From: an uncultured virus (IMG/VR IMGVR_UViG_3300034198_030405)
Taxonomy: Duplodnaviria > Heunggongvirae > Uroviricota > Caudoviricetes
Virus record (IMG/VR): IMGVR_UViG_3300034198_030405
DNA: 64,000 nt
Strand: one strand, 5' to 3'
Both the position numbers and the translations under genes were made by a program. The notes below the pieces were generated by a model. That model was not told the origin of the DNA, did no database searches, and saw nothing but the letters and a program-made list of their open reading frames with translations. Of this stretch, positions 44,854 to 64,000 are shown piece by piece (position 1 is the first letter of the stretch; the number at the start of each line of letters is the position of its first letter).

Positions 44854-44855
44854 TT

Positions 44856-48066: not shown

Positions 48067-48100
48067 AAAAAAAGCGCTGGAGTAGCAATCCTCCAGCGCC
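48067..48100 (-). terminator. Rho-independent terminator after the major capsid gene, copy 1 of the direct repeat
   Basis: GGCGCTGGAG-GATTGCTA-CTCCAGCGC-TTTTTTT on the minus strand. Confidence 0.9.
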
Positions 48101-48122
48101 GATTAATGCTTTGTTCCTTCAA

Positions 48123-49592: not shown

Positions 49593-49665
49593 AAATATTC
49601 CTTTTTTCTTATTCTCGATCTCAGGTATTTTTGTACCTCATTTTTGTGATTCCACTAGTACTATA

Positions 49666-50553: not shown

Positions 50554-50554
50554 A

Positions 50555-50701
50555 TCAGAAAAGCGTTGTGGTTTTTACGGCAGAGGCAATCTTATGCTTA
50601 ACATTGGCTTCGACGATTGCTTGTATATATTTAGTTGCGCTGTGGTAATTTTTATTATTTACCGCACTGATAAATTTAATTATTTGCTGTTTATTACGCA
50701 T
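50555..50701 (-). CDS. Small prohead-region protein (48 aa, below the cutoff)
   Basis: Hand translation MRNKQQIIKFISAVNNKNYHSATKYIQAIVE...; TAAATA upstream. Confidence 0.6.
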   Translation of the reverse strand: MRNKQQIIKFISAVNNKNYHSATKYIQAIVEANVKHKIASAVKTTTLF

Positions 50702-50711
50702 ACGAATGTAT

Positions 50712-51377: not shown

Positions 51378-51463
51378 ATTCGTATTTATATTAGTAAGCA
51401 TAAATTATACGCTTTATATCATACATCATAGACTTTTTATGCTTGAAACATAACATACTAGCA

Positions 51464-52642
51464 CTATCCTACAAGAAACATTACAGGTTCTACTGCACCC
51501 ATGCCTGGAGCCGAGCCGCTAAACAGCTGTTCTTCGAGGCGTTTCTTTTCTTCAATGCCTTGTGTCATCATATCAGATGAAAAGACCTGGCCACCAAACA
51601 GCGGCAGCTGCCCATACTTACCTCTTACATATCCTACTGAAATTTTAGTAAGAGCAAGTGCGTATTCGTATACCCAAAACTCCTTGATTAAATCACGCAG
51701 CGGTCTTTCAACATATGCTGAAATTACACCATAGAATCTGCTATTTGCAGTCGGCTGAGGATACATTACCATGTACTGAGTGCGGTCATCAAATTTCATC
51801 TCACGCTTAGTTGCGAGCATTTTTTCTCTTACATCAAGCCAATTTTTCAGTGTGTACCAAGACACAAGATCAAAGCCATAATTACCCATGGCATATGAAA
51901 AGTAGGTTTGTTGAGCAAGAGTTTGCTCAATGGTAAATAAAGTATTAATGCCTGTGGTACTACCTTCCTCAAAATCTGTAACAGACATTACTTTGCGGTA
52001 ATCCATAACATCATAATCAAACATGTTATTATATTGCTCTACTGCTGTAGTGGTACACTCACCTTGTATAGTAAGCTTATTATTGGTGCGCTGTGTTTGC
52101 TTAAAAGCACCTGTGAGAGAGATGTTGAGAGTTGCTTTAAATGATGTTAAGATATTTGTACGGGTAAGCTCATCAAGTAATTGAAACTCAAAGAGACCAG
52201 ATTCAGTAAAGTGTGCAGATAGATTTGGAATTTGAGCAAAATAAGATACCGGTACTGCGCTTATACAAACATATTCTGCTGGAGGGGGCTCTATATATGG
52301 TGATGTTGATCTTGAAGTGGTCTGTGCTTCAAGTTTACGATCGATTGTTAAATTAGAATTTGATAAGGTGTAAAGTAAATCTAATCTTATGCCTTTATTC
52401 TTTTCATATAAATTTGAATCAAAGATCAAATACTCTTGCGTATATCCTGCATATCTTGTAAAAAGTTCACATGCAATGCTTATGTTTTCAAAAATTTGAT
52501 CTTGATGTACTTCAATAGTAATTAATGGTGCACCCAATGCACGCACAATTCTGTCTGAGAGTCTACAAAATGAATCAATCCGACTATTGAGGTTGGTAGA
52601 CTGGAACGCAGAAATTGGTGTAATTGTGCAAGTATTAGCCAT
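51464..52642 (-). CDS. Neck protein (gp13-like)
   Basis: RALGAPLITIEV..Q, WVYEYALALTK...RGKY...GG, C-terminal PVMFLVG. Confidence 0.85.
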   Translation of the reverse strand: MANTCTITPISAFQSTNLNSRIDSFCRLSDRIVRALGAPLITIEVHQDQIFENISIACELFTRYAGYTQEYLIFDSNLYEKNKGIRLDLLYTLSNSNLTIDRKLEAQTTSRSTSPYIEPPPAEYVCISAVPVSYFAQIPNLSAHFTESGLFEFQLLDELTRTNILTSFKATLNISLTGAFKQTQRTNNKLTIQGECTTTAVEQYNNMFDYDVMDYRKVMSVTDFEEGSTTGINTLFTIEQTLAQQTYFSYAMGNYGFDLVSWYTLKNWLDVREKMLATKREMKFDDRTQYMVMYPQPTANSRFYGVISAYVERPLRDLIKEFWVYEYALALTKISVGYVRGKYGQLPLFGGQVFSSDMMTQGIEEKKRLEEQLFSGSAPGMGAVEPVMFLVG

Positions 52643-52764
52643 AGATATGTACATGAAAAAACATGTCACACATATTTAGGCTCTGATAAGTATCGGAAGC
52701 ATCATATTCACAAACATGAGAAAAATATTAATACTCAAATTTTGTGCCCCTGCAGAACTATAGG

Positions 52765-54552
52765 CTATTCACCTGCTTCAGGTGGTGCTGCTGCTGCTGC
52801 TTCTGGTGGCGCTTCAACTTCTGGCGGTGCCTCTACAGCTGCAGGCCCGCCTGCAAATTCAGGTGGAATACCTGCTGGGCCTGCACCACCGGCAGGGGGA
52901 GCACCCCCAGTCTCGCCACCTGCACCACCACCACCACCACCTGCACCACCACCCATCATAAGTTTCCAATATGGACCAGAGTTAGTGATCTGATTAAGCT
53001 CCCATTCCAATTCTTTATCTGCGCGTAGATACTCTCTATTAGCTTTGATATCAATGTCACTCCAGCTGAGTAATTTTTTCTGCAAATATGTTTGAGAAAT
53101 TGTTGCATTTGAAGCAAGGTTATTAAAGTTGCTCACTTTAATTTCCAATCTCTGACTCTGGCGTAGCTCATAATAATTAGTAGGCGGATTAAATTCTACA
53201 TCCAAATAATAATCTTTGAGATTCCATTTATCCCACAGCCCCTTGAGGTGTAGATGAGTAAAGAAACCTCTTTTGAGGCCCGTAGCAAACAACTGCTGCA
53301 TTCTAATGACAAATCTTGCGAATTTTAATTCTTCACGCAAAATTGAACTGTCGGCAGAAATTTGTGATTGTGGATCAAGTCTATTGACTGGTACTTTGAG
53401 TGCTTCGTATAGTTTTTTGACAAAATACATTAAGTCTGTCAATTCACCAAGATTCTGACCGCCAGGCAATTGTGTTACATTTGTACCTTCAGATCCAGCT
53501 CTCTTGGCAAACCAAAAACTATCCAGCATGCTCTGTGGGTTAAATTTTCTAACCACATCGTTCTGATCAACATCAAAAGTCTTGCTGCTCCAATATTGCT
53601 GAATAAGCTTGCGTAGATAAGCTTCTGCCTTGGGTGGTGCCATGTTGCCTACATCAACATTAAAAATAAGACGCTCTGGCGCACGCACCAAACGATAAAT
53701 TACAATGGCATCTTCAATGAGAGACAATTGACGATATGCACGGCGGGCGTTTTCAATGAAAGGCAGGCGCACTGTTTTATTTTGATTCCAAATGCCGCTG
53801 TTAATGTATACAACCTGATTCTCCTGCATAGGAATCATCTTCTCTTCAATTTTTTTCTTAGGATTAGTTGCATCAAAAATTGGCTTTCTATATAGAAAGC
53901 CTTTAACAATCATGTTTTGAATATTGTTGTAAACTGGATCTACTAATTCCGTAGGCATTCTAATTGTGCCTAATACACCCTGCTCGGGATATTTTTTGTG
54001 AATGATGTGTTCAAAAAATAACTCCCCTTCAATTAAAAGTTCTCGAAAATATGCCCAGCCTTTATTTTCGAGATCATAGAACTGAATGTATTTCTGAAAT
54101 TCTAGCTGCAGCTGTTCATGATCAACTGCGTCCATTGTGAAGTTTCTAAGCCTTATATTGACAATGTTGTTTTGTGAATCGCGATTAATCATTTCATCAC
54201 AAACTTCATCCAATGCATTGGATACTTCTGCAAATGCCGCCATTACTCTGTAATCCTGCATGCGTGAACCTTTATCTTGTTGCACATTTGCATACATGAG
54301 ATCCCCAAAGTTCACATCTTTGAATTCACCATATCCTGCAGAGAACAGGTTAGATTGTGATACAGAATTTCTGGCAAGTGCTTCGTTTCTGCGAATACCG
54401 GTTTCTTCAAATGTTTTGAATTTAGGATTTTCTTTTTCTGTAAAATCCAGAACATTAAAACCAGAATATGGCAGCTTAGAAGAAATGTAGGTCATTAACT
54501 GCCTACCAAATGTTTGCTGCACATTGGATTGATTACTATAAGAAGAGTCCAT
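52765..54552 (-). CDS. Portal protein (gp20)
   Basis: LIEDAIVIYRLVRAPERLIFNVDVGNM, TQLPGGQNLGE, REELKF; long Gly/Pro/Ala C-terminal tail. Confidence 0.97.
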   Translation of the reverse strand: MDSSYSNQSNVQQTFGRQLMTYISSKLPYSGFNVLDFTEKENPKFKTFEETGIRRNEALARNSVSQSNLFSAGYGEFKDVNFGDLMYANVQQDKGSRMQDYRVMAAFAEVSNALDEVCDEMINRDSQNNIVNIRLRNFTMDAVDHEQLQLEFQKYIQFYDLENKGWAYFRELLIEGELFFEHIIHKKYPEQGVLGTIRMPTELVDPVYNNIQNMIVKGFLYRKPIFDATNPKKKIEEKMIPMQENQVVYINSGIWNQNKTVRLPFIENARRAYRQLSLIEDAIVIYRLVRAPERLIFNVDVGNMAPPKAEAYLRKLIQQYWSSKTFDVDQNDVVRKFNPQSMLDSFWFAKRAGSEGTNVTQLPGGQNLGELTDLMYFVKKLYEALKVPVNRLDPQSQISADSSILREELKFARFVIRMQQLFATGLKRGFFTHLHLKGLWDKWNLKDYYLDVEFNPPTNYYELRQSQRLEIKVSNFNNLASNATISQTYLQKKLLSWSDIDIKANREYLRADKELEWELNQITNSGPYWKLMMGGGAGGGGGGAGGETGGAPPAGGAGPAGIPPEFAGGPAAVEAPPEVEAPPEAAAAAPPEAGE

Positions 54553-54583
54553 TCTAGTTATTTAGTTGCTTAACAGCGAACAG

Positions 54584-55735
54584 CTACACAACATTAATAA
54601 AAACACTTTGATTGGCGCTATAAGATGTGTCATATCCTGCCTCATTGATGACTGCAACGGTAAATTTACCTGCTGCAGAAAGTGTAGGCAGTGTAACTGT
54701 CATTACATTATCGTTAATAATGCTATAACTGTTAATTAAAAAACACGAAATAGGCGGGTAATATGCAAAGTTGAGTGCAGTCAATGACTTGTAAAATAAT
54801 GCATTGCTGCTGCTAAGTGCTACAGCAGATGTATTAGTGAATCTCTTGCCTAATAAAGTAATGGCTCCACCTGATACAAATGAATTAATGGTATAATTTG
54901 ATGTAATGTTTTCACCGATGCCCGTTCTTGTTGCATAATATATATTGGTAATAGTTGGAGCAGCAGATATACTCACTGTTTCCACAAAACCTCCTATATT
55001 TGATGCGCTCAATGTTGCATACTCATCCAGCGTTGAGTATATGAAATTATATGGATTACCAGATAGTTGTCTGGTAGCATAAAAATTAGCATCAATGAAG
55101 AATATATTTTTTACTTTATTTGTTGGTGCTTCTGGGAATAACCAGCCTTTAATTGTAAAGCTTGTATCTGCAGTTACTCTATAAACATCTGTTGGTGTTT
55201 GGTCACCTGGATAAGCTAAACTAATGGACCCACTCCAATCAACTTCTGTTCGTATTTCGTAAGTTTTGCTCAAATTATAAGATGCAGGAATTTTCCAGCT
55301 TATGATGAGATATGGATTTACATATGATGCAAAGTTGGAAATAATTTGTTCTAAATCTGTTTGATACTTAGCAATGATGCTCATGTTTACTGATACATTC
55401 ACCGGTACAGGTGAAAATACCTGATTAGAAAACGCAGCATACTCATTATTTGTGTCTGAAGCAGGGTAGTAGAATCCATCAAGCTTGTTAAAAACACGAG
55501 ATGGATCTCTTGCAATTTGTGTAATATGCAGAGATACAGCAGGCAATGTAATATTTTTGCCCTTGTTTATAATATCATACAGCACCCGCTGCTTGGGTGC
55601 ATATATATACCGCACATTGATTTGATCTTTTGTTCCACGCGAGCCTGTGAATCTCTTAATCACACAATCATCAAATGCAGCAATGAATTGTGTGATTAGA
55701 TCTTCAATCTCAAAATGAAATGCCTGGTTTTCCAT
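54584..55735 (-). CDS. Tail terminator/sheath stabiliser (gp15-like) with a C-terminal Ig-like extension
   Basis: FHFEI..F..FDD, YIYAPKQR, TLPAVS, EQIISNF, FTIKGWLF. Confidence 0.85.
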   Translation of the reverse strand: MENQAFHFEIEDLITQFIAAFDDCVIKRFTGSRGTKDQINVRYIYAPKQRVLYDIINKGKNITLPAVSLHITQIARDPSRVFNKLDGFYYPASDTNNEYAAFSNQVFSPVPVNVSVNMSIIAKYQTDLEQIISNFASYVNPYLIISWKIPASYNLSKTYEIRTEVDWSGSISLAYPGDQTPTDVYRVTADTSFTIKGWLFPEAPTNKVKNIFFIDANFYATRQLSGNPYNFIYSTLDEYATLSASNIGGFVETVSISAAPTITNIYYATRTGIGENITSNYTINSFVSGGAITLLGKRFTNTSAVALSSSNALFYKSLTALNFAYYPPISCFLINSYSIINDNVMTVTLPTLSAAGKFTVAVINEAGYDTSYSANQSVFINVV

Positions 55736-55750
55736 GCAGTTATTTATGCA

Positions 55751-56986
55751 TCATGCAAGCAATGCCGATACAGGTACACCCTTATCAGCAAGTTTGAATG
55801 GTCTACCTTCAGGCGATAATAGTACATGATTGATAGGCAGACCTGCAGCTGCAGCAATGGTAGCATTAAAATCAGCTGGTGATATAATGTTTTCTACTGC
55901 TTTCATTCCCTTGTCATCAGACTTACCGTAAACTTGCCCACCTTTGATGCCTGCACCAATGAGTACACCACAAAATGCACCGGGGTGATGGTCGCGTCCA
56001 TCATTAATGTTGATTATAGGTGTGCGTCCAAAGTCAGTAGCAATGACAATGAGTGTCTTGTTAAGTAGTCCACTTGACTGCAAATCATTAATGAGCGCAT
56101 TTAGCGCTTGATCTAAAATGGCTAATTTTGTTTCTAAAGAATCAAAATTATCAACATGTGTATCCCACCCGCCATCAGAGACTTCAATGAATTTGCATCC
56201 ACCTTTTTCAATGAGACGTTTTGCTAAGCAGCAGCCTTGACCAAAGCGATTGTTGCCATATCTTTCTCTAGCCATTGCATCTTCCTTGGATAAATCAAAC
56301 ACATCAATTTCAGTACTGTTGAGCAGGCGAATAGTTTGGTCATAAAATTCTGCATAACTTTTTTGTAATGGGTTCACAACCTTATTTGAGTCCCTTTCAA
56401 GTTGTTGCAAAATATATACTCGCTTGGAAAATTCTGATGCATCTTTAATTTTTGTGTTATCTAAACCTCTTACTGGATCAGCAATGGGAATGGGTGAATA
56501 TTTTTTAGGCATCCAACCTGCACCAGGATGATCAGCAGTACCTGAGATAAGTACATTCTCGGGAATGATTTTTTTCTCATGTGTATCTGTAAGATTGCAC
56601 ATCCATGCACCCAAATTTGGATGCACTATGGTACCAATTTTCTTAAATGAAGTTCTTTGAATGTATTGTGCACCAGCATGGTCTCCTGTTGTGACCATCA
56701 TGCTACGAACAATGGACATTTTATCACCATGCTTAGCAAGCTTAGACAAATGTTCAGAAATTTGATGACCGGCATTAGTAGTGATGGCATTAAATTTCCC
56801 CTTGACATCGGCATTAATTTTTGGGTCAAATGTATCCAAATGACTCATGCCTCCATTCATAAAAAGATAAATGATATGCTCTGCTTTACTGGCTGCGGGT
56901 GAAGCAGCAATGTTAGGAAGAACTGTTACGCCCAAGCCTGCTGAAGCAAGATTGAGTACAAAGTTGCGACGTGTTAATGTTTCCAT
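55751..56986 (-). CDS. DUF1501 protein with Tat signal
   Basis: TRRNF twin-arginine; LFMNGGMSHLDTFDPK, YG.NRFGQGC.LA.RL, GWDTH, DFGRTP..N..GRDHHP. Confidence 0.9.
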   Translation of the reverse strand: METLTRRNFVLNLASAGLGVTVLPNIAASPAASKAEHIIYLFMNGGMSHLDTFDPKINADVKGKFNAITTNAGHQISEHLSKLAKHGDKMSIVRSMMVTTGDHAGAQYIQRTSFKKIGTIVHPNLGAWMCNLTDTHEKKIIPENVLISGTADHPGAGWMPKKYSPIPIADPVRGLDNTKIKDASEFSKRVYILQQLERDSNKVVNPLQKSYAEFYDQTIRLLNSTEIDVFDLSKEDAMARERYGNNRFGQGCCLAKRLIEKGGCKFIEVSDGGWDTHVDNFDSLETKLAILDQALNALINDLQSSGLLNKTLIVIATDFGRTPIININDGRDHHPGAFCGVLIGAGIKGGQVYGKSDDKGMKAVENIISPADFNATIAAAAGLPINHVLLSPEGRPFKLADKGVPVSALLA

Positions 56987-56990
56987 AATG

Positions 56991-58769
56991 TTATTTATTA
57001 AATTTAAATTCAGAACTGTTAATTAGGGCCCAAATAATATCATCATTTTGACACCCTGCAAAGTTTGCCTTTTCAGCTATACTAGGCCTTCTTGATAGAA
57101 TGGATTTAAAAATAATGTCAATGGTCTCTGCAGGTGATTTGCCAGAAACATTCTTTGCAAGTTGTGTGTTTGCATTAGCTGCAATGTCAATAAGCTGCCC
57201 ATTCATAAAAGATATAACCTGTGTGACACTACCCTCTTTGCTGCTGGAATCGATAAGCTCTCGATCTCCTCTGCCCAACTGCTCTAAAATAGTATTAACA
57301 TTACTGGTGTCGTTGACTTCGGATGCACGCATTAAATTATAGTTTTTATACTTTGACACACCATCATATTTTCCACCAATTGCTTTTTGATAATCTGCAT
57401 ATTTGGTGCGAATATATTCTAGAGTCACATCATTTGACTGCATGAGCATAATTTTAGCATATGCATCATGAAAGGTTAATTTGAAGTTTTCCGGCGATTC
57501 AATGGCAATTGCAACAACTGAATCCCAAAGTTGCTCTGCACTTAATCTATATTTTACTGGGCCAATGAATATAAACTTAGTAGAGTTCATATTAGCACCA
57601 TCATACAACTCTCGTTGAAATAATTTGGTATTATACAATACATATAGAAATTGTCTGCTATCATAATTTAATTTGATCATGATATCAGCTAAAACATTCA
57701 TTAAATCACTTTGCAGCAAATCACTATCATGAATATTGTCATACTGCCCAATGATGTACTTTCCAAATACCCATTTCCAATATCTATTGACAATGTTTTT
57801 AGTAAAGGTGGGATGATTGGCATTCACCATCCATTCAACTGCATCTTTGCGCATATCATCCTTATTTTTGATGGTTGTCTTTCCGCTCAGTACCACTGGC
57901 TCAACAACATCAAATGGCTTACCATCTGTATACTGATAGTCATGCGGCAATTTGAGCTGCTTATTAGCTTCAATTGTCAAGTCAGAACGCATGGCTCTAA
58001 TAAAATTATTAATCTGATTGTTGAGACCTCTATTTTTTATTGGATCAGCTTTGATGAGTTCATCCATTTGTAGTCTTAATACTTTTATTTTTTCGTTAAA
58101 TTCTTTACTATCTTTGCTGCGCAATTCTACTTGATTGAATAGCGCTGCCATTCCATAAAATTGTTTTTGTGTAAAATCCTGGAATGGATCATCATGGCAC
58201 TGTGCGCAACTAATGTTGATGCCTAAAAATACTTTGCTAGTGGCAATGAGGTTATCCATGGGCATACCCAAGTCTCTGTAATAATATCCTACCGCAGGTG
58301 AGGTAAAATAATTACCACTTGAAAGAAGTAAATCAGATACAAATTGATTGTACGGCTTGTTTGATGCTAGCTGGTCTTTGATATAGTCAATGTATACAGC
58401 ACCATGAAAGTTATTGACATTGTTGAGTCTATCACGCAATCTTAATGATTCTGCCCAAAAATTAAACATGTGCGAAACATGCCCGGGATGTCTGATGAGA
58501 TATTGAATCAAACCACTGCGTTTATTTGCATCATTAACATTGCTAAACATTTGATATTCCTCAAATGTAGGATTGCGTCCTATGATGGCGAGATATGCTC
58601 GACGTACAAAAGCATCATCATTAATGAATTGCAGAGGTGTAATTTTTGATACAACATACTGCTTATCTAGGACAGCGTCAATTTTTTTGCTATAACTGCT
58701 GAGCTGTTCAACAGTTGCACCAAATGTCAACGTGCACATTCCTACTAAAACCGCAATTAATTTTTTCAT
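56991..58769 (-). CDS. DUF1549/DUF1553 (PSCyt2/PSD1) exported protein with a heme-c motif
   Basis: Signal peptide MKKLIAVLVGMCTLTFG; DDAFVRRAYL.IIGR.PT, NKPYNQFV, FLGINISCAQCHDDPF, VNRYW, RLSAEQLWDS, WALINSSEF. Confidence 0.9.
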   Translation of the reverse strand: MKKLIAVLVGMCTLTFGATVEQLSSYSKKIDAVLDKQYVVSKITPLQFINDDAFVRRAYLAIIGRNPTFEEYQMFSNVNDANKRSGLIQYLIRHPGHVSHMFNFWAESLRLRDRLNNVNNFHGAVYIDYIKDQLASNKPYNQFVSDLLLSSGNYFTSPAVGYYYRDLGMPMDNLIATSKVFLGINISCAQCHDDPFQDFTQKQFYGMAALFNQVELRSKDSKEFNEKIKVLRLQMDELIKADPIKNRGLNNQINNFIRAMRSDLTIEANKQLKLPHDYQYTDGKPFDVVEPVVLSGKTTIKNKDDMRKDAVEWMVNANHPTFTKNIVNRYWKWVFGKYIIGQYDNIHDSDLLQSDLMNVLADIMIKLNYDSRQFLYVLYNTKLFQRELYDGANMNSTKFIFIGPVKYRLSAEQLWDSVVAIAIESPENFKLTFHDAYAKIMLMQSNDVTLEYIRTKYADYQKAIGGKYDGVSKYKNYNLMRASEVNDTSNVNTILEQLGRGDRELIDSSSKEGSVTQVISFMNGQLIDIAANANTQLAKNVSGKSPAETIDIIFKSILSRRPSIAEKANFAGCQNDDIIWALINSSEFKFNK

Positions 58770-58774
58770 AATTA

Positions 58775-59542
58775 TTATTTATTCTTTTTATGCAATCTAA
58801 AATCAAAGTCATCTTGAAACTGAGATGTTGCTGCTTTATATGATTGTTTAGTTTCATCACTAGCATCATCTGTAAACTGCCAATACAATGACATAGGCAC
58901 TGGCGACTTGAACCCAAACATCTCAAAAACTTGGCGCTGCGTTTGCATAACTTGTTTATCTTTCCAGTTGTGGCCTATTACTATGATGCCTGCTTCTTTA
59001 TTTTCGAGTAAGTTGCTCTCACCCAAACAGCTCCATCTATTTTCTAACCATGTGAGTCGTTCTATGAGTTTTTGGTATATTGAATTAGTCTGTCCCCACC
59101 TCACACTTGTAAAAAATACAACTGCATTTGCTTCAAATATCTTGTTAGCAATTTTATAAATTTCATCATCTCTATGTTTAGCTTCCCAACATCTTATTAA
59201 CCCAGTTGGATTTTTTGATGAACTTTTTAATAGAGCATCTTTTGCACCGCAAATATTCCCAGACGCTAAACTAACATTACCGGAACAGCACCTAATATTG
59301 AGCTTATCTGCTTCAATGATGTTAATAGTTTGATCTGGAAGCATGTCTTTTATATGATATGCAAGTTGTGTAGATTTTGCTTTTTGTTCGGAACCAGACC
59401 ATCTGTTGCTAGTTGTTACGAACAAAACATTATTTTTTGATCTTAAAGAGTCAGCAAACTCATTCATCTCATTTTGCATTTGCGAAGTAGTGTGCAATTT
59501 TTTTTCCGAAATAATAGAATTAAAAGTATTGTTGAAGCTCAT
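58775..59542 (-). CDS. Flavodoxin-fold protein (NADPH-dependent FMN reductase / iron-sulfur flavoprotein-like)
   Basis: TTSNRW, KST.LA, CCSGNVS..C..CW, FFTSVRWG, QKLIERL. Confidence 0.7.
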   Translation of the reverse strand: MSFNNTFNSIISEKKLHTTSQMQNEMNEFADSLRSKNNVLFVTTSNRWSGSEQKAKSTQLAYHIKDMLPDQTINIIEADKLNIRCCSGNVSLASGNICGAKDALLKSSSKNPTGLIRCWEAKHRDDEIYKIANKIFEANAVVFFTSVRWGQTNSIYQKLIERLTWLENRWSCLGESNLLENKEAGIIVIGHNWKDKQVMQTQRQVFEMFGFKSPVPMSLYWQFTDDASDETKQSYKAATSQFQDDFDFRLHKKNK

Positions 59543-59569
59543 ATTTGTATTTAGAGAATAAATAGATAC

Positions 59570-59896
59570 ATGCCAGTACCTACAACAAACAATGGAGTTA
59601 CATATTACAACCTCAATACATGTAAGTCTTTCAGCGTTGCATTAGACACCAATTTAAAAGCTCTTCCCTTTCAGGTGTGTTCAGAAGTCATTATAAAAAA
59701 TACAACTGGGCAAGGCATTGCTGTATACGATCAAAACAATTTTGCTGTGTCAAATGCATTTCGCTTGTCAGCAGATCAAGAATTTACATTTAGAGGTCTT
59801 ACCAACAGCTCACAAGTAAGCGCACAAACAACCGCAGGTGCTGGTCAGCTGTCCATAAGAACACAGTTCTTTTCATTCTCTAATCAAGGCGTTTAA
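59570..59896 (+). CDS. Hypothetical protein
   Basis: TAAATA 5 nt upstream; FTFRGLTNSSQVSA. Confidence 0.65.
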   Translation: MPVPTTNNGVTYYNLNTCKSFSVALDTNLKALPFQVCSEVIIKNTTGQGIAVYDQNNFAVSNAFRLSADQEFTFRGLTNSSQVSAQTTAGAGQLSIRTQFFSFSNQGV

Positions 59897-61149
59897 ACAA
59901 TGATTTGCTCAATGGGCTGAGCTTCATAGACAATTTCTACAGGGCGCAAATCAGGTGTCATGAGGGTCTTTCTAGGATTAATGCCCATGAGATGGTACAT
60001 TGTAGCAGCTAACTGACCGGGGGTAACTGGATCTGTATCTGGTTCCGATGCTAATGCATCACTGGTTCCATATGCAAATCCTGCCTTGGTTCCGCCCCCA
60101 GCAAGTACAGAAGAGAATACACGAGGCCAATGATCGCGGCCATTGGTTTGATTGATTTTAGGTGTGCGTCCAAATTCAGATGTAACTAAGACTAATGTAG
60201 AATCAAGCAATCCGCGTTGCCTTAAGTCTGCAATAAGTGCAGCAAAAGCTTTATCAAAACTAACCATGTTTTGCTCAAATGCACTCTTGATGTTGCTATG
60301 ATGATCCCAGCTACCATATGTTACGGTGACCATTCGAACACCTGCTTCAACCAATCTACGTGCAAGCAGCAATCGCTGACCAGCAGCATTTTTTCCATAT
60401 GTCTCTCTTACTGAATCTGTTTCTTTTGATATCTCAAATGCTTCACGAGCCTGGGTAGAAGAAATCATATTATAAGCATCATTATAAAACGAATCAGATG
60501 CTTTAATTGCATCAGCACGTGATTCTCTTGTTTTAAAATAATCATCTACAATGCCGAGCATTTTTTTGCGTCGCTCAAACATCTCATTTGTCACACCAGT
60601 GGGCAGTTTTAGATCCCTGACTACAAACGATGGATCCTCTGGATTTGAGCCTAGTGCAAATGGTCCGAAACGGGTTGATAAGTAACCAGTGCCATTCTCG
60701 GGAGCAAATTGATTTGGCACGAGCACATACGCGGGTAGATTGTTTCTACTGCCGAGCTCATGATTAATAACGCTTCCAAAAGAAGGGTAAGATAATGCTG
60801 GAGATGGCTTGTAGCCTGTGAGCATATTATGTACTCCGCGCTCATGAGCAGCTTCACCATGTGTCATGGATCTTATGACTGTCAATTCATTGCTAATATT
60901 TGCCGTATTTTGCAGCAAAGAGCCAAAATAAACTCCATCAATTTTAGTCTTAATACCTCCAAAAGGTCCCCTGTAATCAGACGATCCATTGGGTTTATAG
61001 TCCCATGCATCCTGATGTGCAATGCCGCCAGGTAGGAAAATTTGAATTACAGATGTTGCTTTTGCTGCATTTGTAGATTGCGCTCTGAGTAAAGCAGGAA
61101 GTGATGCACCTGCTGCAGCACCTACTCGAATAAATTCTCTGCGGTTCAT
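59893..61149 (-). CDS. Second DUF1501 protein with Tat signal
   Basis: MNRREF; IFLPGGIAHQDAWD.KP, YG..AAGQRLLLARRLVEAGV, WDHH, EFGRTPKIN..GRDHWP. Confidence 0.9.
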   Translation of the reverse strand: MNRREFIRVGAAAGASLPALLRAQSTNAAKATSVIQIFLPGGIAHQDAWDYKPNGSSDYRGPFGGIKTKIDGVYFGSLLQNTANISNELTVIRSMTHGEAAHERGVHNMLTGYKPSPALSYPSFGSVINHELGSRNNLPAYVLVPNQFAPENGTGYLSTRFGPFALGSNPEDPSFVVRDLKLPTGVTNEMFERRKKMLGIVDDYFKTRESRADAIKASDSFYNDAYNMISSTQAREAFEISKETDSVRETYGKNAAGQRLLLARRLVEAGVRMVTVTYGSWDHHSNIKSAFEQNMVSFDKAFAALIADLRQRGLLDSTLVLVTSEFGRTPKINQTNGRDHWPRVFSSVLAGGGTKAGFAYGTSDALASEPDTDPVTPGQLAATMYHLMGINPRKTLMTPDLRPVEIVYEAQPIEQIIV

Positions 61150-61178
61150 ATGTGTATTTAACCAGTGTATATTACATT

Positions 61179-61508
61179 TCAATTGCTCTTATTATCGTCA
61201 AAGAACTTTATCGGATTTTTAGCAAATCTAGCAGCAATTTTTATTAAACCATTAATGAGTTCTGGGCTAACTACACCCACCACGCCATATACAATGGCTT
61301 TGGTTAAGCTAGCAAGTTCAGTCTGTTCAAGCACAAACCATGCAATGCCAGAGCAAAGAGATGCAGCAAGTATTCTTTTAAAAATTTCATAAGCTGAATG
61401 TCTTATTCCACTGCAAAGTATTCTTGCTCCCATGCCCGAAGCACCGACAATGAGGATAATCCACCCACCGCTTAAAAATTCATTAATTAAATTTTTGTGA
61501 TCGCTCAT
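61179..61508 (-). CDS. Small multi-pass membrane protein, holin-like
   Basis: Three hydrophobic segments and a charged C-terminus; TAAATA upstream. Confidence 0.55.
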   Translation of the reverse strand: MSDHKNLINEFLSGGWIILIVGASGMGARILCSGIRHSAYEIFKRILAASLCSGIAWFVLEQTELASLTKAIVYGVVGVVSPELINGLIKIAARFAKNPIKFFDDNKSN

Positions 61509-61600
61509 TATTAATATTTATTTTTTGAGCTAGCTTAAAATGAAAAAATAAAAAAAATATAATAATGCTGCCATTATTATATTTTTTAGTGTAGAAGTTT

Positions 61601-61762
61601 TTAATGTATGGGTTTGACGGCACTATCATCGTCATCGTCATCATCATCGTCAAATTCTTCGTGCTTAGGGGCAAAACTACATTCTAGGATGAATATAATT
61701 GTAATGACACCAACAACCCAGCCGCAGAAGAAAGCGCCTATTAAAGATATATAATTAATCAT
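61601..61762 (-). CDS. Small membrane protein with a poly-Asp tail (53 aa)
   Basis: Hand translation MINYISLIGAFFCGWVVGVITIIFILECSFAPKHEEF(D)9SAVKPIH. Confidence 0.45.
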   Translation of the reverse strand: MINYISLIGAFFCGWVVGVITIIFILECSFAPKHEEFDDDDDDDDDSAVKPIH

Positions 61763-61801
61763 AAGTTAAGAAGGATAAAATAAAATATACTAAATTATTC
61801 A

Positions 61802-62023
61802 TTACAAATCAATATCATCAGAACCTAATTCCTCCTTCATTGCATTCATCATGTCATTGAGTGCATATACAGCTTCTTCTTTTGTCATAGACTCATGCCA
61901 ATAATCATCAATTAAAAGAATATCGGGTAAGTCCATGTAGCTCAGATTGAAGCTACTATTACATTTTTTATCCCATGCTTTGATGAATGACTCTAGAGTG
62001 ATGTGTGTATCTGTGTTGTTCAT
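61802..62023 (-). CDS. Hypothetical protein
   Basis: Acidic 73-aa ORF, DLPD motif. Confidence 0.55.
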   Translation of the reverse strand: MNNTDTHITLESFIKAWDKKCNSSFNLSYMDLPDILLIDDYWHESMTKEEAVYALNDMMNAMKEELGSDDIDL

Positions 62024-62030
62024 ATTTAAA

Positions 62031-62318
62031 TTATGTTTTGGGTGATTCTTTTTGCATTTCTTCAGATCCTGTTTTTAGAAATGCGGACTGTGCAAACGTC
62101 GGTTCAAAATCCTGCCCGTCATTAATGACTGCTAAACCTGTAATGTCTATGAGGTCCTTGCGAAGAAGACTCAGCAGCGTCTCTGCAATTAGAGCCTTGG
62201 CGACCCAATCTTCAATAATGATGCGCTCAGAGCTGCGAATTTCATTGCGGTCAAAATCATCTACAATCTTAGTGTAGAGATCGGGATCAGATTCATATAA
62301 TTTACTGTTCATTTGCAT
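62031..62318 (-). CDS. Hypothetical protein
   Basis: 95-aa ORF. Confidence 0.55.
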   Translation of the reverse strand: MQMNSKLYESDPDLYTKIVDDFDRNEIRSSERIIIEDWVAKALIAETLLSLLRKDLIDITGLAVINDGQDFEPTFAQSAFLKTGSEEMQKESPKT

Positions 62319-62609
62319 TTAATGTATGATGAGTCAATAGGCTATCAACTAAAAATATATGTCATAGTAAAATTTAAATAAAAACTTATCTTTTATAAGA
62401 GTGTTATACCGCTGGCTGTAATGCACGACTTCTTTTTAGATGCACATTTAGCATAAATAATTGTATGAATTTTTTTTGCAGTTACTACTTTTTTAAGAAA
62501 TTTTTGCTGTTGTGTAGTTAATATGGATATTCTACTTCTAGTTTCAGGTTTATTGGGTGTTGCTTTTGGTCTCTACCTTATAGTAACAGCTAGATGAAAT
62601 GATTTTTAT

Positions 62610-62675
62610 GGACGGTAACGCTCCGTCTTTTCTCAGACCACAACTGAGGGCGATGACTTTCGTACGACGAGAGGA
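62610..62675 (-). pseudogene. tRNA-His(GTG) remnant
   Basis: Anticodon arm CTCAG-TTGTGGT-CTGAG and T arm GACGG-AGCGTTA-CCGTC are present; there is no pairing 3' acceptor strand or CCA. Confidence 0.6.
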
Positions 62676-62684
62676 TTTTAAAAA

Positions 62685-62758
62685 TGGTACCTGGTGTGGA
62701 AATCGAATACCTATTGAGGCTTTAGAAGAGCCTATCTTATCCATTAAACGAACCAGGC
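62685..62758 (-). tRNA. tRNA-Arg(TCT) with a poorly paired T stem
   Basis: GCCTGGT/ACCAGGT-A-CCA acceptor; AGGCT-CTTCTAA-AGCCT anticodon arm; T stem AGGTA/TCCAC is mismatched. Confidence 0.7.
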
Positions 62759-62817
62759 ATTTGTTGTTTAACAAAACTATTATAATATGTTTACTATTTA
62801 AAAACAACTAATAAAAT

Positions 62818-62883
62818 TGGCGGCCCGTTAACTTCACCTGAAATTTGGAATCTCAGATGCCTAGGATTAACCAGCGACGGGCC
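62818..62883 (-). ncRNA. tRNA-Trp(CCA)-like RNA lacking the T arm
   Basis: GGCCCGT/ACGGGCC-G-CCA acceptor, CTGG/CTAG D stem, 9-bp stem closing TTCCAAA, 6-nt linker in place of the T arm. Confidence 0.6.
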
Positions 62884-62912
62884 AAGCGCTGGAGACGCAC
62901 GCGTACTAGAAT

Positions 62913-62995
62913 TGGAGGACATACAGAGTATCGCACTCTGCGTAGGAATTTAATCCACGTGGTTTTGCAGACCACTGCGTTCACTAGCTCGCTAT
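62913..62995 (-). pseudogene. tRNA-Cys(GCA) remnant
   Basis: GTGGT-CTGCAAA-ACCAC anticodon arm, CAGAG/CTCTG T stem and 3' CCA are present; the 5' acceptor strand does not pair. Confidence 0.6.
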
Positions 62996-63012
62996 TTGAA
63001 AATTGAAAATTT

Positions 63013-63152
63013 AGCGCCACACGGGGTAGCAAAGCCCGCTGGCGCTCGCAGAACATTCGCAAAGCTTGTGCAAGCGCGCTTACTATCAGAGCCGTCAGAG
63101 GTACTCGGCTTGCAAGATCGACCTCTGAGATTGCGGTTGATTGAATGTTCTG
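63013..63152. ncRNA. Unassigned structured RNA candidate within the tRNA array
   Basis: GC-rich island with perfect stems AGCGCCA/TGGCGCT, CAGAACATTC/GAATGTTCTG and TCAGAGGT/ACCTCTGA. Confidence 0.5.
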
Positions 63153-63156
63153 AAAT

Positions 63157-63232
63157 TGGTGCCCGAGGTGAGACTCAAACTCACGATAGTCTGCGTGTAA
63201 GGCAGATACTTTAGTCACTAAGTTACTCAGGC
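63157..63232 (-). tRNA. tRNA-Val(TAC)
   Basis: Full cloverleaf; TCTGC-CTTACAC-GCAGA anticodon arm; CCA encoded. Confidence 0.9.
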
Positions 63233-63240
63233 ATTTAAAA

Positions 63241-63402
63241 TTATTTTTTCTTCTTGAACCAACATATGATTTTTTTGATTAAATCCAGCGAGATAATTGG
63301 AATGAACCCTTCTCTATAGCCGTATTTCTCAGCATTTTTTATATCTTGTGCCTTTTGCAAATGATTACTTTGTTCATTCCAGCTTTCGTTATTTTTATTC
63401 AT
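63241..63402 (-). CDS. Small hypothetical protein inside the tRNA array
   Basis: MNKNNESW...; start placed downstream of tRNA-Met. Confidence 0.4.
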   Translation of the reverse strand: MNKNNESWNEQSNHLQKAQDIKNAEKYGYREGFIPIISLDLIKKIICWFKKKK

Positions 63403-63409
63403 ATGAAAT

Positions 63410-63496
63410 TGGTTGCGGGGGCTGGACTCGAACCAGCACAAGCAATAATGTCTTCTGGTTATGAGCCAGACGTGTTAACCGTTACACTACCCCGCG
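63410..63496 (-). tRNA. tRNA-Met(CAT), initiator-like, with a long variable region
   Basis: C1:A72 mismatch, TCTGG-CTCATAA-CCAGA anticodon arm, GCTGG-TTCGAGT-CCAGC T arm, ACCA end, 16-nt variable region. Confidence 0.85.
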
Positions 63497-63538
63497 TTTA
63501 AAATTTAAATTAGACCACTTACTTACAATTTTGAAATT

Positions 63539-63566
63539 TGGCTCCCAAGCGTGGGGTTGAACCACG
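63539..63566 (-). pseudogene. 3' tRNA fragment (T arm, acceptor strand and CCA)
   Basis: CGTGG-TTCAACC-CCACG-CTTGGGA-G-CCA with no 5' half. Confidence 0.6.
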
Positions 63567-63581
63567 TTCAACTGTTTAAAT

Positions 63582-63656
63582 TGGTGAACCTTAACGGTAA
63601 TGCTCCGTTTTCTAGAAGTTAAAAGCTTCTTGCTTCACTGTTAAAGCTTAAGGTTC
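63582..63656 (-). tRNA. tRNA-Lys(TTT)
   Basis: GAACCTT/AAGGTTC acceptor, AGAAG-CTTTTAA-CTTCT anticodon arm, non-canonical T loop AGCATTA, CCA. Confidence 0.85.
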
Positions 63657-63673
63657 TTCTGTTAAAAGGAAAT

Positions 63674-63725
63674 TGGTCGCTCCCATGGGATTTGCACCCG
63701 TATCATTACAAGTGCCTACGGAGCA
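63674..63725 (-). pseudogene. Internally deleted tRNA-like element (acceptor stem and T arm only)
   Basis: TGCTCC/GGAGCG acceptor, ACGGG-TGCAAAT-CCCAT T arm, ACCA end; no D or anticodon arm. Confidence 0.5.
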
Positions 63726-63769
63726 TTAAAATTAATGCTTAGATTTTCAATATACCTGATGTATATCGA

Positions 63770-64000
63770 TTAACGCTGAAACGCTCTGCCTAGTATAGGC
63801 TTTTGTTGTGGAGCAGCTACATTACCTGTAGTAAGCTTTTCAACCTCTTGTTTAAATGCGTCTAAGCTTTTAAATTGCTTTTGATCTAAACTAGCAAGCA
63901 ATTCACTATTATTCGGCGTTGGTGATTTAAACGACGTACCTAAAATTTTATTTGCATCACCCTTTACTGAGACAGTAACGATACCATTATACACTGCTAT
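63770..64000 (-). CDS. Hypothetical protein, C-terminal part (start probably beyond the right edge)
   Basis: ORF reaches the window end. Confidence 0.5.
   Translation of the reverse strand: MAVYNGIVTVSVKGDANKILGTSFKSPTPNNSELLASLDQKQFKSLDAFKQEVEKLTTGNVAAPQQKPILGRAFQR

What the first reader, a model, noticed from the sequence alone, without database searches (positions are those of the whole stretch)
55751..61149. PVC-type DUF1549/1553 + 2x DUF1501 exported module in the phage late gene block
Seen: a signal-peptide protein with DUF1549/DUF1553 motifs and CAQCH, and two divergent twin-arginine DUF1501 proteins (TRRNF; MNRREF). They lie between a holin-like gene and gp15/gp20, on the same strand as the virion genes. 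Each has its own TAAATA 5-6 nt before the ATG (56992, 58776, 61155), the same layout as portal and gp15. Established: DUF1501 with DUF1549/1553 is a functionally uncharacterised gene pair expanded in Planctomycetota/Verrucomicrobiota; CxxCH is the heme-c attachment motif; Tat exports folded cofactor-bearing proteins. Inference: the phage has adapted this module and expresses a periplasmic heme/metallo-enzyme complex late in infection. Possible roles are envelope remodelling for lysis, superinfection exclusion, or sulfur/phosphate scavenging. I do not know of a described phage version. It also points to a PVC host.
Basis: partly seen in the sequence, partly recalled or inferred. Interest (0 to 1): 0.9.

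Follow-up and report, generated by a model that had tools for sequence, protein, structure and literature searches.

The report
Phage-borne PVC-type exported enzyme module
A freshwater T4-like phage carries three genes for exported proteins, copied from Verrucomicrobia bacteria, that belong to a large bacterial gene family of unknown function and have not been described in phages.

Summary
Window 55751-61149 (- strand) encodes two Tat-signal DUF1501 proteins about 29% identical to each other. It also encodes a signal-peptide PSCyt2/PSD1 (DUF1549/DUF1553) protein with an invariant CAQCH. All sit between T4-type gp15/portal genes and a small three-helix membrane protein. It is not an assembly chimera: contigs from an independent study bridge both junctions. 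Thirty IMG/VR contigs carry module genes, in three different T4-like genome contexts.

The PSCyt2/PSD1→DUF1501 pair has the same gene order as in 77 of 80 Verrucomicrobiota loci. The second DUF1501 has single 56-59% orthologues in Verrucomicrobiales. The phage copies have phage-like GC content and dN/dS of 0.06-0.11. A co-fold supports a PSD1–DUF1501 heterodimer (0.71 versus 0.00 for controls). DUF1501 has an alkaline-phosphatase-superfamily fold without the sulfatase formylglycine motif. The PSCyt2/PSD1 model matches no solved fold convincingly.

A 99%-identical phage has lost the pair through a 2,617-bp deletion between 11-nt repeats, so the pair is accessory. Heme binding, substrate and expression timing remain untested. 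No match was found in PHROGs, in 50,697 phage records or in the searched literature. My reading is a new host-derived auxiliary gene set that points to a Verrucomicrobiales host.

The parts
55751..56986 (-). DUF1501_A: 411-aa Tat-signal (TRRNF) protein of the alkaline-phosphatase superfamily. It is the downstream gene of the pair.
   Evidence: PF07394, 2e-95. The RR motif is in 35 of 39 relatives. It is 36-45% identical to the gene that follows PSCyt2/PSD1 in 77 of 80 Verrucomicrobiota loci.
56991..58769 (-). PSCyt2/PSD1 (DUF1549/DUF1553) protein of 592 aa with an N-terminal hydrophobic signal peptide. It is all-alpha, and its C-terminal part is predicted to dock on DUF1501_A.
   Evidence: PF07583 6e-34 and PF07587 5e-23. 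Model pLDDT 86.6, pTM 0.88. No Foldseek PDB match at E<=1e-3. Co-fold score 0.71 against a best control of 0.00.
58194..58208 (-). Codons for CAQCH (residues 188-192), the CxxCH motif.
   Evidence: C188-A189-Q190-C191-H192-D193 are invariant in 34 sequences that go down to 39% identity. There is one CxxCH per sequence in 34 of 34.
58775..59542 (-). 255-aa FMN_red-like flavodoxin-fold protein with no signal peptide. It is a phage-type neighbour and not part of the PVC module.
   Evidence: FMN_red scores 22.9 bits, below the cut-off of 24. The nearest Atlas clusters are 96-100% viral. The gene is absent from L009/L016 and L128, which keep the module.
59570..59896 (+). 108-aa ORF of unknown function on the opposite strand, conserved in relatives.
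   Evidence: No family match. It is 54-81% identical in related loci.
59893..61149 (-). DUF1501_B: 418-aa Tat-signal (NRREF) protein from a different DUF1501 orthologous group, with no PSCyt partner of its own in the phage.
   Evidence: PF07394, 1e-109. It is 56-59% identical to a single orthologue in each of 4 of 5 Verrucomicrobiales genomes. Fold Z 18.0-17.7 to ENPP/PafA and 17.1-15 to sulfatases.
61179..61508 (-). 109-aa small membrane protein with three hydrophobic stretches ('holin-like', unverified).
   Evidence: Hydropathy windows fall around residues 7-35, 44-62 and 64-92. No family match. It is 74-87% identical in related phages.
56984..56997 (-). TAAATA-N5-ATG at the DUF1501_A start. 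It overlaps the last codons and the stop of the PSCyt2/PSD1 gene.
58767..58781 (-). TAAATA-N6-ATG at the PSCyt2/PSD1 start.
61147..61160 (-). TAAATA-N5-ATG at the DUF1501_B start.
58616..58626 (-). 11-nt direct repeat inside the PSCyt2/PSD1 gene: the upstream end of the natural 2,617-bp deletion.
   Evidence: The two blastn blocks of L002 overlap by 11 nt. A contig in run X7 skips 55998->58616 with 11 shared letters.
55999..56009 (-). Second copy of the 11-nt repeat inside DUF1501_A: the downstream end of the deletion.
   Evidence: The deletion leaves an in-frame 133-aa fusion ORF in L002.
54584..55735 (-). T4 gp15-like tail sheath stabiliser: the flanking virion gene.
   Evidence: PF16724 9e-20. 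phrog_227.
52765..54552 (-). T4 gp20-like portal: the flanking virion gene.
   Evidence: PF07230 1e-95. phrog_213 2e-97.

Best explanation
This is a host-derived accessory (auxiliary-metabolic-type) gene set in an uncultured lineage of freshwater T4-like phages whose host is most likely a member of the Verrucomicrobiales. The phage took up a two-gene cassette, PSCyt2/PSD1 followed by DUF1501, and separately a lone DUF1501 of another orthologous group. During infection the PSCyt2/PSD1 protein is exported by Sec and the two DUF1501 proteins are exported folded by Tat. In the periplasm the C-terminal PSD1 part of the first protein docks on the helical cap of DUF1501_A, giving a heterodimer. DUF1501 is the catalytic subunit, a metal-dependent enzyme of the alkaline-phosphatase superfamily that does not use the formylglycine chemistry of sulfatases. 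It most likely hydrolyses phospho- or other esters. The CxxCH-bearing partner supplies substrate binding or a heme. The benefit to the phage is more of a host periplasmic activity (nutrient release) while it replicates. The pair is useful but dispensable. Shown here: location in a phage, donor lineage, conservation under selection, fold class, predicted complex, natural loss. Inferred: export, catalysis, substrate, heme, expression timing, host.
For: Phage context. The window encodes T4-type MCP, protease, portal, gp15, gp55, RNR and helicases.

Not a chimera. In run X2, from another study, a 4,100-bp contig covers 55098-59197 and a 3,603-bp contig covers 59830-62500. The same synteny is seen at 68-87% protein identity in L003, L008, L009, L128 and L129.

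Spread. Thirty distinct IMG/VR contigs carry at least one module gene, and 14 hold all three in the stretch fetched. In L027 the pair lies among helicase, SSB, exonuclease and primase genes. In L011/L012 it lies next to clamp-loader genes.

Origin. The best 80 of 576 genome contigs relatives of the PSCyt2/PSD1 protein are 28-36% identical. Of these, 79 are labelled Verrucomicrobiota, and 77 are followed on the same strand by an A-type DUF1501. B-type orthologues are 56-59% identical. In the tree, 15 of the 16 phage B rows fall in one clade (with 3 unnamed proteins; support 99; L014 unresolved), sister (96) to named Verrucomicrobiaceae. The phage A rows form a clade with support 96.

Adaptation and selection. 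GC is 0.36-0.43 against 0.48-0.58 in the cellular genes. dN/dS is 0.06-0.11, like gp15 at 0.11.

Complex. The ipSAE score is 0.71 (median of three runs) and the best of 3 controls is 0.00. That mark was reached by 116 of 157 solved complexes and by 2 of 215 mismatched pairs. The runs share at least 62% of their contacts and the partner's pLDDT is at least 86. The interface includes the near-invariant stretch 509-524 of PSD1. No solved relative was found by sequence.

Fold. Best Z scores are 18.0-17.7 to ENPP7, PafA, ENPP6, ENPP4 and Xac NPP, then 17.1-15 to sulfatases. T-H-G-E, W-D-H-H, S-E-F-G-R-T and G-R-D-H are invariant or nearly so.

Accessory status. There is a 2,617-bp deletion between 11-nt repeats in L002 and in a 14,193-bp contig of run X7.
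Against: There is no expression data, since no RNA run holds the stretch. No activity, metal or heme data exist for any member of these families in the papers read.

The top fold matches to phosphodiesterases and to sulfatases differ by less than 1 Z, so they are tied. The Pfam Phosphodiest hit is below its cut-off, 20.8 against 23 bits.

The cellular orthologous pair sits among housekeeping genes such as HtpG, TsaE, Tgt and SecDF. It does not sit in nutrient-uptake loci, which gives no support to a scavenging role.

The host is inferred only from the gene donors. The portal is only about 30% identical to that of any isolated phage. The search of 401 Verrucomicrobiales genomes with 20 kb of the window gave only gene-level similarity and one low-complexity hit.

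In the A-type clade, two proteins are nested among the phage rows, one of them named for a Roseibacillus MAG. The number and direction of transfers is therefore not settled.

The co-fold is a model and used my own alignments.
Confidence: 0.55

Rival explanations
1. The module is a lysis or envelope-remodelling accessory. The exported enzymes would modify the unusual PVC-type envelope late in infection, helping the neighbouring small membrane protein release the progeny.
For: In this lineage the genes lie directly beside a three-helix small membrane protein and the virion genes. They also share the TAAATA-N5-6-ATG start layout with portal and gp15.
Against: The 'holin' is unverified, with no family match. 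In other phage lineages the same genes lie among replication genes, or next to the clamp loader, with no such neighbour. A 99%-identical phage without the pair persists at depth 39.9 in run X7. The cellular orthologues are chromosomal genes in housekeeping neighbourhoods.
Confidence: 0.12
2. The pair is a redox enzyme rather than a hydrolase. The CxxCH of PSCyt2 would carry heme c and pass electrons to or from a metal centre in DUF1501, as proposed for the bacterial module. The phage would use it to alter periplasmic electron flow or to oxidise a substrate.
For: CAQCHD is invariant in 34 of 34 phage-clade proteins. A Sec-type signal fits cytochrome c maturation in the periplasm (established knowledge, recalled). 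Tat export fits a cofactor-loaded partner. Kamneva et al. 2012 suggested electron transport (PMC3542564, passages read). In one of 14 cellular loci, ResB/CcsA cytochrome c assembly genes follow the pair.
Against: No cytochrome c fold was recognised in a confident model. The phage protein lacks the PSCyt1 cytochrome domain. The predicted interface uses the PSD1 C-terminus (residues 390-590) and not the CxxCH region. DUF1501 keeps the hydrolase-type scaffold of the alkaline-phosphatase superfamily.
Confidence: 0.2
3. The module acts in superinfection exclusion or receptor masking. The periplasmic enzymes would alter a surface or periplasmic structure that other phages need.
For: The proteins are exported, phage-encoded and dispensable. 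The presence/absence polymorphism between near-identical phages is typical of conflict genes.
Against: There is no direct evidence. dN/dS of 0.06-0.11 shows conservative evolution, not the diversifying pattern common in conflict genes. The genes are orthologues of conserved host chromosomal genes. I did not scan the PADLOC library.
Confidence: 0.08
4. The block is an artefact: a chimeric assembly or bacterial DNA binned as viral.
For: The gene families are otherwise bacterial. There were no PHROG hits and no hits in 50,697 phage records.
Against: Contigs of an independent study bridge both junctions. Thirty IMG/VR contigs of up to 224,703 bp carry the genes between phage genes. The GC is phage-like. 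The nearest cellular DNA is only 64-78% identical over gene fragments.
Confidence: 0.01

Closest known systems
DUF1501 + PSCyt/PSD1 gene modules of Planctomycetota, Verrucomicrobiota and Lentisphaerota (Kamneva et al. 2012, PMC3542564; He et al. 2017, PMC5615132; passages read)
   Same: The Pfam families are the same. The gene order is the same, with the PSCyt2/PSD1 gene followed by DUF1501. DUF1501 carries a twin-arginine signal and the partner carries a signal peptide and CxxCH. Function is unknown in both.
   Different: This version is carried by T4-like phages. The partner is a minimal 592-aa form without PSCyt1, carbohydrate-binding or other extra domains. GC is ameliorated to the phage's. 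A second, unpaired DUF1501 travels with the pair. The phage proteins are only 28-36% (partner) and 36-45% (DUF1501_A) identical to the nearest cellular pair.
Phage auxiliary metabolic genes for exported nutrient-acquisition proteins, such as cyanophage pstS and phoA
   Same: They are host-derived genes for periplasmic proteins, kept under purifying selection in T4-like phages, variable between close relatives, and found alongside phoH (window 12753-13511).
   Different: The substrate and benefit here are unknown, the gene families are different, and a two-protein complex is predicted.
Alkaline-phosphatase superfamily enzymes: NPP/ENPP phosphodiesterases, PafA phosphatase, S1 sulfatases
   Same: The core fold is shared: Z 18.0 (rmsd 3.5, 236 aligned) to ENPP7 and Z 17.1 to human steroid sulfatase. 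Foldseek E is about 1e-6 to sulfatases and LtaS. D-H motifs are conserved at the positions of metal ligands.
   Different: Identity is only 8-15%. The [CS]xPxR formylglycine motif is absent: it is present in only 1 of 36 and 2 of 39 sequences. Neither the Sulfatase nor the Phosphodiest Pfam model reaches its cut-off. A large helical insert at residues 140-222 forms the predicted docking site for PSD1.

Membership tests
DUF1501 (PF07394) | Full-length HMM match above the gathering score | tested here: met
   320.7 and 367.8 bits against a cut-off of 27, covering profile positions 1-389/390 and 1-390/390.
DUF1501 (PF07394) | N-terminal twin-arginine signal, as reported for many members (PMC3542564) | tested here: met
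   TRRNF and NRREF are present. RRx[FLIVM] lies in the first 25 aa of 35 of 39 and 31 of 36 relatives. No SignalP or TatP program was available.
PSCyt2 (PF07583) / PSD1 (PF07587) proteins | Both domains above the gathering score, in this order | tested here: met
   118.2 bits (cut-off 29.8) on residues 29-215 and 82.2 bits (cut-off 28.5) on residues 307-570.
PSCyt2 (PF07583) / PSD1 (PF07587) proteins | Adjacent DUF1501 gene | tested here: met
   DUF1501_A starts 5 nt after the stop codon. The order is the same in 77 of 80 cellular loci and in every phage locus that holds both genes.
c-type cytochrome | CxxCH motif on an exported protein | tested here: met
   CAQCH lies at residues 188-192 and is invariant in 34 of 34. 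The N-terminal hydrophobic signal was read from the sequence.
c-type cytochrome | Covalently bound heme or a cytochrome c fold | tested here: inconclusive
   No cytochrome fold appears among the Foldseek or VIA-align matches to a model with pLDDT 86.6. Heme binding cannot be tested with these tools.
Type I (S1) sulfatase | Cys/Ser-x-Pro-x-Arg formylglycine motif and a Pfam Sulfatase match | tested here: not met
   [CS]xPxR occurs in 1 of 36 and 2 of 39 sequences only. There is no PF00884 match for the window proteins. At the place of the sulfatase SDHG motif DUF1501_B has SEFGRT.
NPP/PafA-type phosphoesterase | Pfam Phosphodiest match, Thr nucleophile and two-metal ligand set | tested here: inconclusive
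   Phosphodiest scores 20.8 bits, below the cut-off of 23, on residues 269-330 of DUF1501_B only. Fold Z of 17.7-18.0 is tied with sulfatases. The conserved T, D-H-H and D-H residues fit but were not mapped onto a structure.
Phage auxiliary metabolic gene | Host-derived gene inside a phage genome, conserved among phages | tested here: met
Phage auxiliary metabolic gene | Expressed during infection and changing host metabolism | not testable with these tools
   No RNA run holds the stretch.
T4-type late gene (gp55-dependent promoter) | TATAAATA-like box upstream, and gp55 encoded by the phage | tested here: inconclusive
   A gp55 homologue lies at 5036-5518. TAAATA lies 5-6 nt before the ATG of all module genes, portal and gp15. 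Twelve of the 20 genes with the motif lie in 45.8-61.5 kb, and 8 lie elsewhere. No transcript starts are known. The T4 consensus is recalled.

The most novel reading that the evidence does not exclude
T4-like phages of Verrucomicrobia carry a stripped-down, self-sufficient version of the PVC superphylum's largest uncharacterised periplasmic system. It would be a two-protein holoenzyme in which a new all-alpha, CxxCH-bearing fold (PSCyt2/PSD1) clamps onto the cap of a new branch of the alkaline-phosphatase superfamily (DUF1501). The phage would use it, together with a second orphan DUF1501, to reprogram what the infected cell takes from its surroundings. If so, the phage copies are the minimal working unit of a system that occurs in many copies per PVC genome, and the first direct handle on its chemistry.
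Probability: 0.3. Interest if true: 0.75.

Novelty: new member of a known kind. Interest (0 to 1): 0.6.

Why it matters
DUF1501 and PSCyt/PSD proteins are strongly expanded in Planctomycetota and Verrucomicrobiota, and the two papers read give no function for them. Phage-borne copies show that the two-gene unit works as a portable module and is worth carrying. They define its minimal form: no PSCyt1 domain and no carbohydrate-binding domains. They also give a testable complex model with named interface residues. The genes offer the first host clue (Verrucomicrobiales) for a deep-branching, widespread freshwater T4-like lineage whose portal is only about 30% identical to that of any isolate. 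Finally, the natural deletion variant gives a ready-made field comparison of phages with and without the pair.

Tried and rejected
1. No RNA holder is listed among the 20 runs that hold the stretch, so nothing can be said about expression.

2. A CRISPR-spacer or other near-identical host link was sought with 20 kb of the window (44001-64000) in 401 Verrucomicrobiales genomes. It returned only 64-84% gene-level similarity to the DUF1501 genes, plus one 97% match of 38-39 nt. That match lies in the CCA-rich low-complexity tail of the portal gene and in a proline-rich coding stretch of G337, not in a repeat array, so I rejected it.

3. The nearest held virus record, G001, is a 50,945-bp fragment with no DUF1501 match. 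The window's own assembly is not held.

4. NCBIfam gave no family for any of the six proteins.

5. Sequence searches of the PDB found nothing below E = 0.08.

6. For the PSCyt2/PSD1 model, the best wide-search match was a phycobilisome-linker domain at Z 5.9 over residues 410-592. That is too weak to count as a shared fold.

7. The 800-aa PPC-domain protein that follows the cellular DUF1501_B orthologues shows no profile similarity to the PSCyt2/PSD1 alignment (hhalign probability 0.1%).

8. Gene neighbourhoods of 14 cellular pairs (72 flanking ORFs scanned) gave no consistent functional hint.

9. The search of earlier findings returned nothing for this genome.

10. My first two scripts for the deletion breakpoint failed on SNPs in the anchor. 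blastn then gave the coordinates.

Full report
**What is there.** The window is part of a T4-like myophage. It encodes a major capsid protein (48123-49592), a prohead protease, a portal (52765-54552) and gp15 (54584-55735). It also encodes a gp55-type late sigma factor (5036-5518), ribonucleotide reductase, helicases, PhoH and queuosine-pathway genes, plus two tRNAs.

On the same strand as the virion genes, directly upstream of gp15, lie five genes:
- DUF1501_A (55751-56986), a 411-aa protein with the twin-arginine motif TRRNF.
- A PSCyt2/PSD1 protein (56991-58769) of 592 aa with a signal peptide and CAQCH.
- An FMN_red-like protein (58775-59542) of 255 aa.
- DUF1501_B (59893-61149), a 418-aa protein with the motif NRREF.
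- A 109-aa protein with three hydrophobic stretches (61179-61508).

A 108-aa ORF lies on the other strand (59570-59896). The Pfam scores are far above the curated cut-offs. The two DUF1501 proteins are only about 29% identical to each other.

**Is it really phage DNA?** Yes.
- Thirty distinct IMG/VR contigs, up to 224,703 bp long, carry at least one of the three genes. Fourteen hold all three in the stretch fetched.
- Among 80 loci found with the portal, the 12 whose portal is at least 68% identical by tblastn all have the module beside gp15, apart from one deletion variant. The 68 with more distant portals (66% or less) show no module gene in the stretch fetched, and many of those stretches are short.
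- In a second lineage (L005, L025, L027) the pair lies among helicase, SSB, exonuclease and primase genes, with DUF1501_B about 6 kb away on the other strand. In a third lineage (L011, L012, L015) the module lies next to the clamp loader.
In run X2, a 4,100-bp contig covers 55098-59197 with 82 differences, and a 3,603-bp contig covers 59830-62500.
- Run X1 holds the whole stretch in one contig, but it may be the source of the window, so it does not count as independent.

**Where the genes came from.**
- The best 80 of 576 relatives of the PSCyt2/PSD1 protein in species-representative genomes are 28-36% identical over the full length. Of these, 79 are labelled Verrucomicrobiota (Luteolibacter, Haloferula, Roseibacillus, Rubritalea, Prosthecobacter, Akkermansiaceae), and one is a MAG labelled Poribacteria.
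- In 77 of the 80, an A-type DUF1501 gene (36-45% identical) follows on the same strand, exactly as in the phage. The pair therefore moved as a cassette.
- DUF1501_B belongs to another orthologous group. Four of five Verrucomicrobiales genomes have a single 56-59% orthologue, with paralogues at 43% or less. The first named hits in the large protein search are Prosthecobacter, Phragmitibacter, Roseimicrobium and Verrucomicrobiaceae MAGs at 59-61%.
- In cells, that orthologue is followed in 4 of 4 cases by a roughly 800-aa PPC-domain protein that is unrelated to PSCyt2/PSD1. The phage did not take this partner.
- I built a quick IQ-TREE tree of 76 rows. Two thirds of the cellular A-type rows were dropped for size, and loci that duplicate a contig were removed. 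The tree puts 15 of the 16 phage B sequences in one clade (SH-aLRT 99) together with three unnamed metagenome proteins; the long-branched L014 falls outside it, unresolved at the base of the B family. That clade is sister (96) to the named Verrucomicrobiaceae. It puts the phage A sequences in a clade (96) that also contains two marine proteins, one of them named for a Roseibacillus MAG. The tree needs only two changes of the phage label, one in each DUF1501 subfamily.

**Adaptation to the phage.**
- The three genes have GC of 0.36-0.43, against 0.37 for the window and 0.48-0.58 for the cellular genes.
- Nei-Gojobori dN/dS between phage copies is 0.06-0.11 where dS is not saturated. That is similar to gp15 (0.11) and portal (0.03).
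- The cassette of the window is closest to that of L009 (80% and 87% identity), a phage with much more distant virion genes (portal 68%). L003 has a 90% identical portal but a more distant cassette (68% and 79%). The cassette is therefore exchanged among phages.
- A contig 99% identical to the window (L002, 203,774 bp) lacks 2,617 bp between two copies of an 11-nt repeat (window 58616-58626 and 55999-56009). This leaves an in-frame 133-aa fusion of the PSCyt2/PSD1 signal peptide to the DUF1501_A tail.
- The same joint appears in a 14,193-bp contig of run X7 at depth 39.9, with 11 letters shared at the joint. The pair is therefore dispensable, as auxiliary genes usually are.

**What the proteins look like.**
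- *DUF1501_B.* The model (pLDDT 71.6, pTM 0.76) has the alkaline-phosphatase-superfamily core. Foldseek E is about 1e-6 to sulfatases and LtaS. In the wide VIA-align search, Z is 18.0-17.7 to ENPP7, PafA, ENPP6, ENPP4 and a bacterial NPP, then 17.1-15 to many sulfatases. Differences under 1 Z are ties.
- *Active-site motifs.* The sulfatase formylglycine motif [CS]xPxR is not conserved: it occurs in 1 of 36 and 2 of 39 sequences. The motifs T-H-G-E, W-D-H-H, S-E-F-G-R-T and G-R-D-H are invariant or nearly so. I read DUF1501 as a metal-dependent esterase-type enzyme that is not a canonical sulfatase. The substrate is unknown.
- *PSCyt2/PSD1.* The model is confident (pLDDT 86.6, pTM 0.88), almost entirely helical, and has no convincing solved counterpart. 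There is no Foldseek match at E <= 0.001, and the best wide-search Z is 5.9. CAQCHD is invariant in 34 sequences down to 39% identity.
- *Heme.* A Sec-type signal plus CxxCH is what a c-type cytochrome needs (established knowledge, recalled). Heme attachment itself is untested.

**The complex.** I co-folded the mature PSCyt2/PSD1 protein (residues 21-592) with mature DUF1501_A (residues 35-411), each with its own alignment.
- The score was 0.71 (median of three runs), against 0.00 for the best of three controls.
- In the tool's calibration, 116 of 157 solved complexes and 2 of 215 mismatched pairs reached that mark. The tool notes these counts hold only roughly with my own alignments.
- The runs share at least 62% of their contacts, and the partner's pLDDT is at least 86.
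- The interface joins PSD1 residues 390-408, 496-525 and 566-590 to DUF1501_A residues 140-222.
- The PSD1 stretch 509-524 is nearly invariant and was disordered in the monomer model. The equivalent insert of DUF1501_B (148-218) was also of low confidence when folded alone.
- No relative has a solved structure by sequence, so this pass is unlikely to come from memory. It supports binding but does not show it.

**Regulatory signal.**
- TAAATA followed by 4-7 nt and ATG occurs 24 times in the window, against 8.9 expected, and 0 of 100 shuffles reach 24.
- It marks 20 of 83 picked genes. Twelve of these lie between 45.8 and 61.5 kb, including portal, gp15, protease, all three module genes, the flavoprotein, the + strand ORF and the small membrane protein. 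Eight lie elsewhere, so the motif is not exclusive to the virion block.
- In eight related loci it precedes 9 of 23 module genes: all three in the closest relative and none in the most distant lineage.
- The box before DUF1501_A overlaps the conserved last codons of the PSCyt2/PSD1 gene.
- It resembles the T4 late promoter core (recalled), and the phage has gp55. The fixed 5-6 nt distance to the ATG would imply nearly leaderless mRNAs, or else a role in translation. Late expression is an inference.

**Function.** The two papers that discuss the bacterial module call its function unknown. They suggest electron transport or carbohydrate-related roles (PMC3542564 and PMC5615132; passages found by term search). 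The cellular orthologues of the phage pair lie among housekeeping genes: HtpG in 3 of 14 loci, TsaE/DUF3108 in 3, and Tgt/SecDF in 3. One locus has cytochrome c assembly genes and one has a sulfatase with GH95. Context therefore does not reveal the substrate.

I commit to the following reading, with confidence 0.55 for the whole and less for the substrate. It is a host-derived accessory periplasmic enzyme set, consisting of a PSD1-DUF1501 heterodimer plus an orphan DUF1501, that boosts an ester-hydrolysing activity of the infected Verrucomicrobiales cell. The rivals are a heme-dependent redox enzyme (0.2), an envelope or lysis aid (0.12), superinfection exclusion (0.08) and an artefact (0.01).

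**Novelty.** The three proteins hit no PHROG family. tblastn of DUF1501_B and of the PSCyt2/PSD1 protein against 50,697 phage records found nothing.

The full-text searches were:
- 'DUF1501' with 'DUF1553': 0 papers.
- 'DUF1501' with 'phage': 2 papers. In one, a 61-aa Pseudomonas phage protein has a weak CDD hit (PMC5418858, passage read). The other (PMC6329079) I saw only as a search listing and did not open.
- The six family names singly.
- 'planctomycete-specific cytochrome' with 'virus': 0 papers.
- 'Verrucomicrobia' with 'T4-like', 'freshwater' and 'auxiliary metabolic': 14 papers, seen as a listing only.

None of these turned up a description of a phage-borne version. Subscription journals and supplements were not covered.

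The kind of thing (a host gene for a periplasmic protein carried by a T4-like phage) is known. The family, the predicted complex and the host lineage are new. I rate it a new member of a known kind, with interest 0.6.

Noticed in passing
window-wide, e.g. 54550-54564(-), 55733-55746(-), 11211-11224(+), 45412-45425(+): TAAATA sits at a fixed 5-6 nt before the ATG of 20 of 83 genes, with no Shine-Dalgarno-like sequence in between. This may mean nearly leaderless gp55-dependent transcripts, or an unusual translation-start signal in this phage lineage.
   Followed up: partly
window 52765-52990 (- strand, portal C-terminus): The portal ends in a roughly 70-residue Gly/Pro/Ala-rich low-complexity tail. 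The complementary strand carries spurious Pro/Ala-rich ORFs (52742-53028). The tail produced a false spacer-like 38-nt match in a Verrucomicrobiales genome.
   Followed up: yes
window 10535-14425 and 42364-43359; L027:93-647: Genes for GTP cyclohydrolase, QueD-like and QueE-like proteins (and QueC-like in a related phage) suggest 7-deazaguanine modification of the phage DNA.
   Followed up: no
window 15869-26247: A long run of glycosyltransferase, methyltransferase and two nucleotide-sugar epimerase genes looks like a phage-borne sugar-modification pathway.
   Followed up: no
L119:8284-10704, L120:4229-6628, L121:8355-10844, L122:8325-10739: In Verrucomicrobiales, the orthologue of DUF1501_B is always followed (4 of 4) by a roughly 800-aa PPC-domain protein with no PSCyt or PSD domain and no profile similarity to PSCyt2/PSD1. 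This may be a second, undescribed type of DUF1501 partner.
   Followed up: partly
window 61060 (DUF1501_B signal-peptide region), run X2: The related strain in run X2 has a 9-nt in-frame insertion in the alanine-rich part of the Tat signal peptide, so the signal length varies between strains.
   Followed up: no
L009/L016 versus L003/L017: The cassette and the virion genes give conflicting relationships. The window's pair is closest to L009 (80% and 87%), while its portal is closest to L003 (90% against 68%). This indicates recombinational exchange of the cassette among phages.
   Followed up: partly
window 36906-37439: A ClpP-like protease gene lies outside the head-gene block, in addition to the T4-type prohead protease at 50712-51401.
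   Followed up: no
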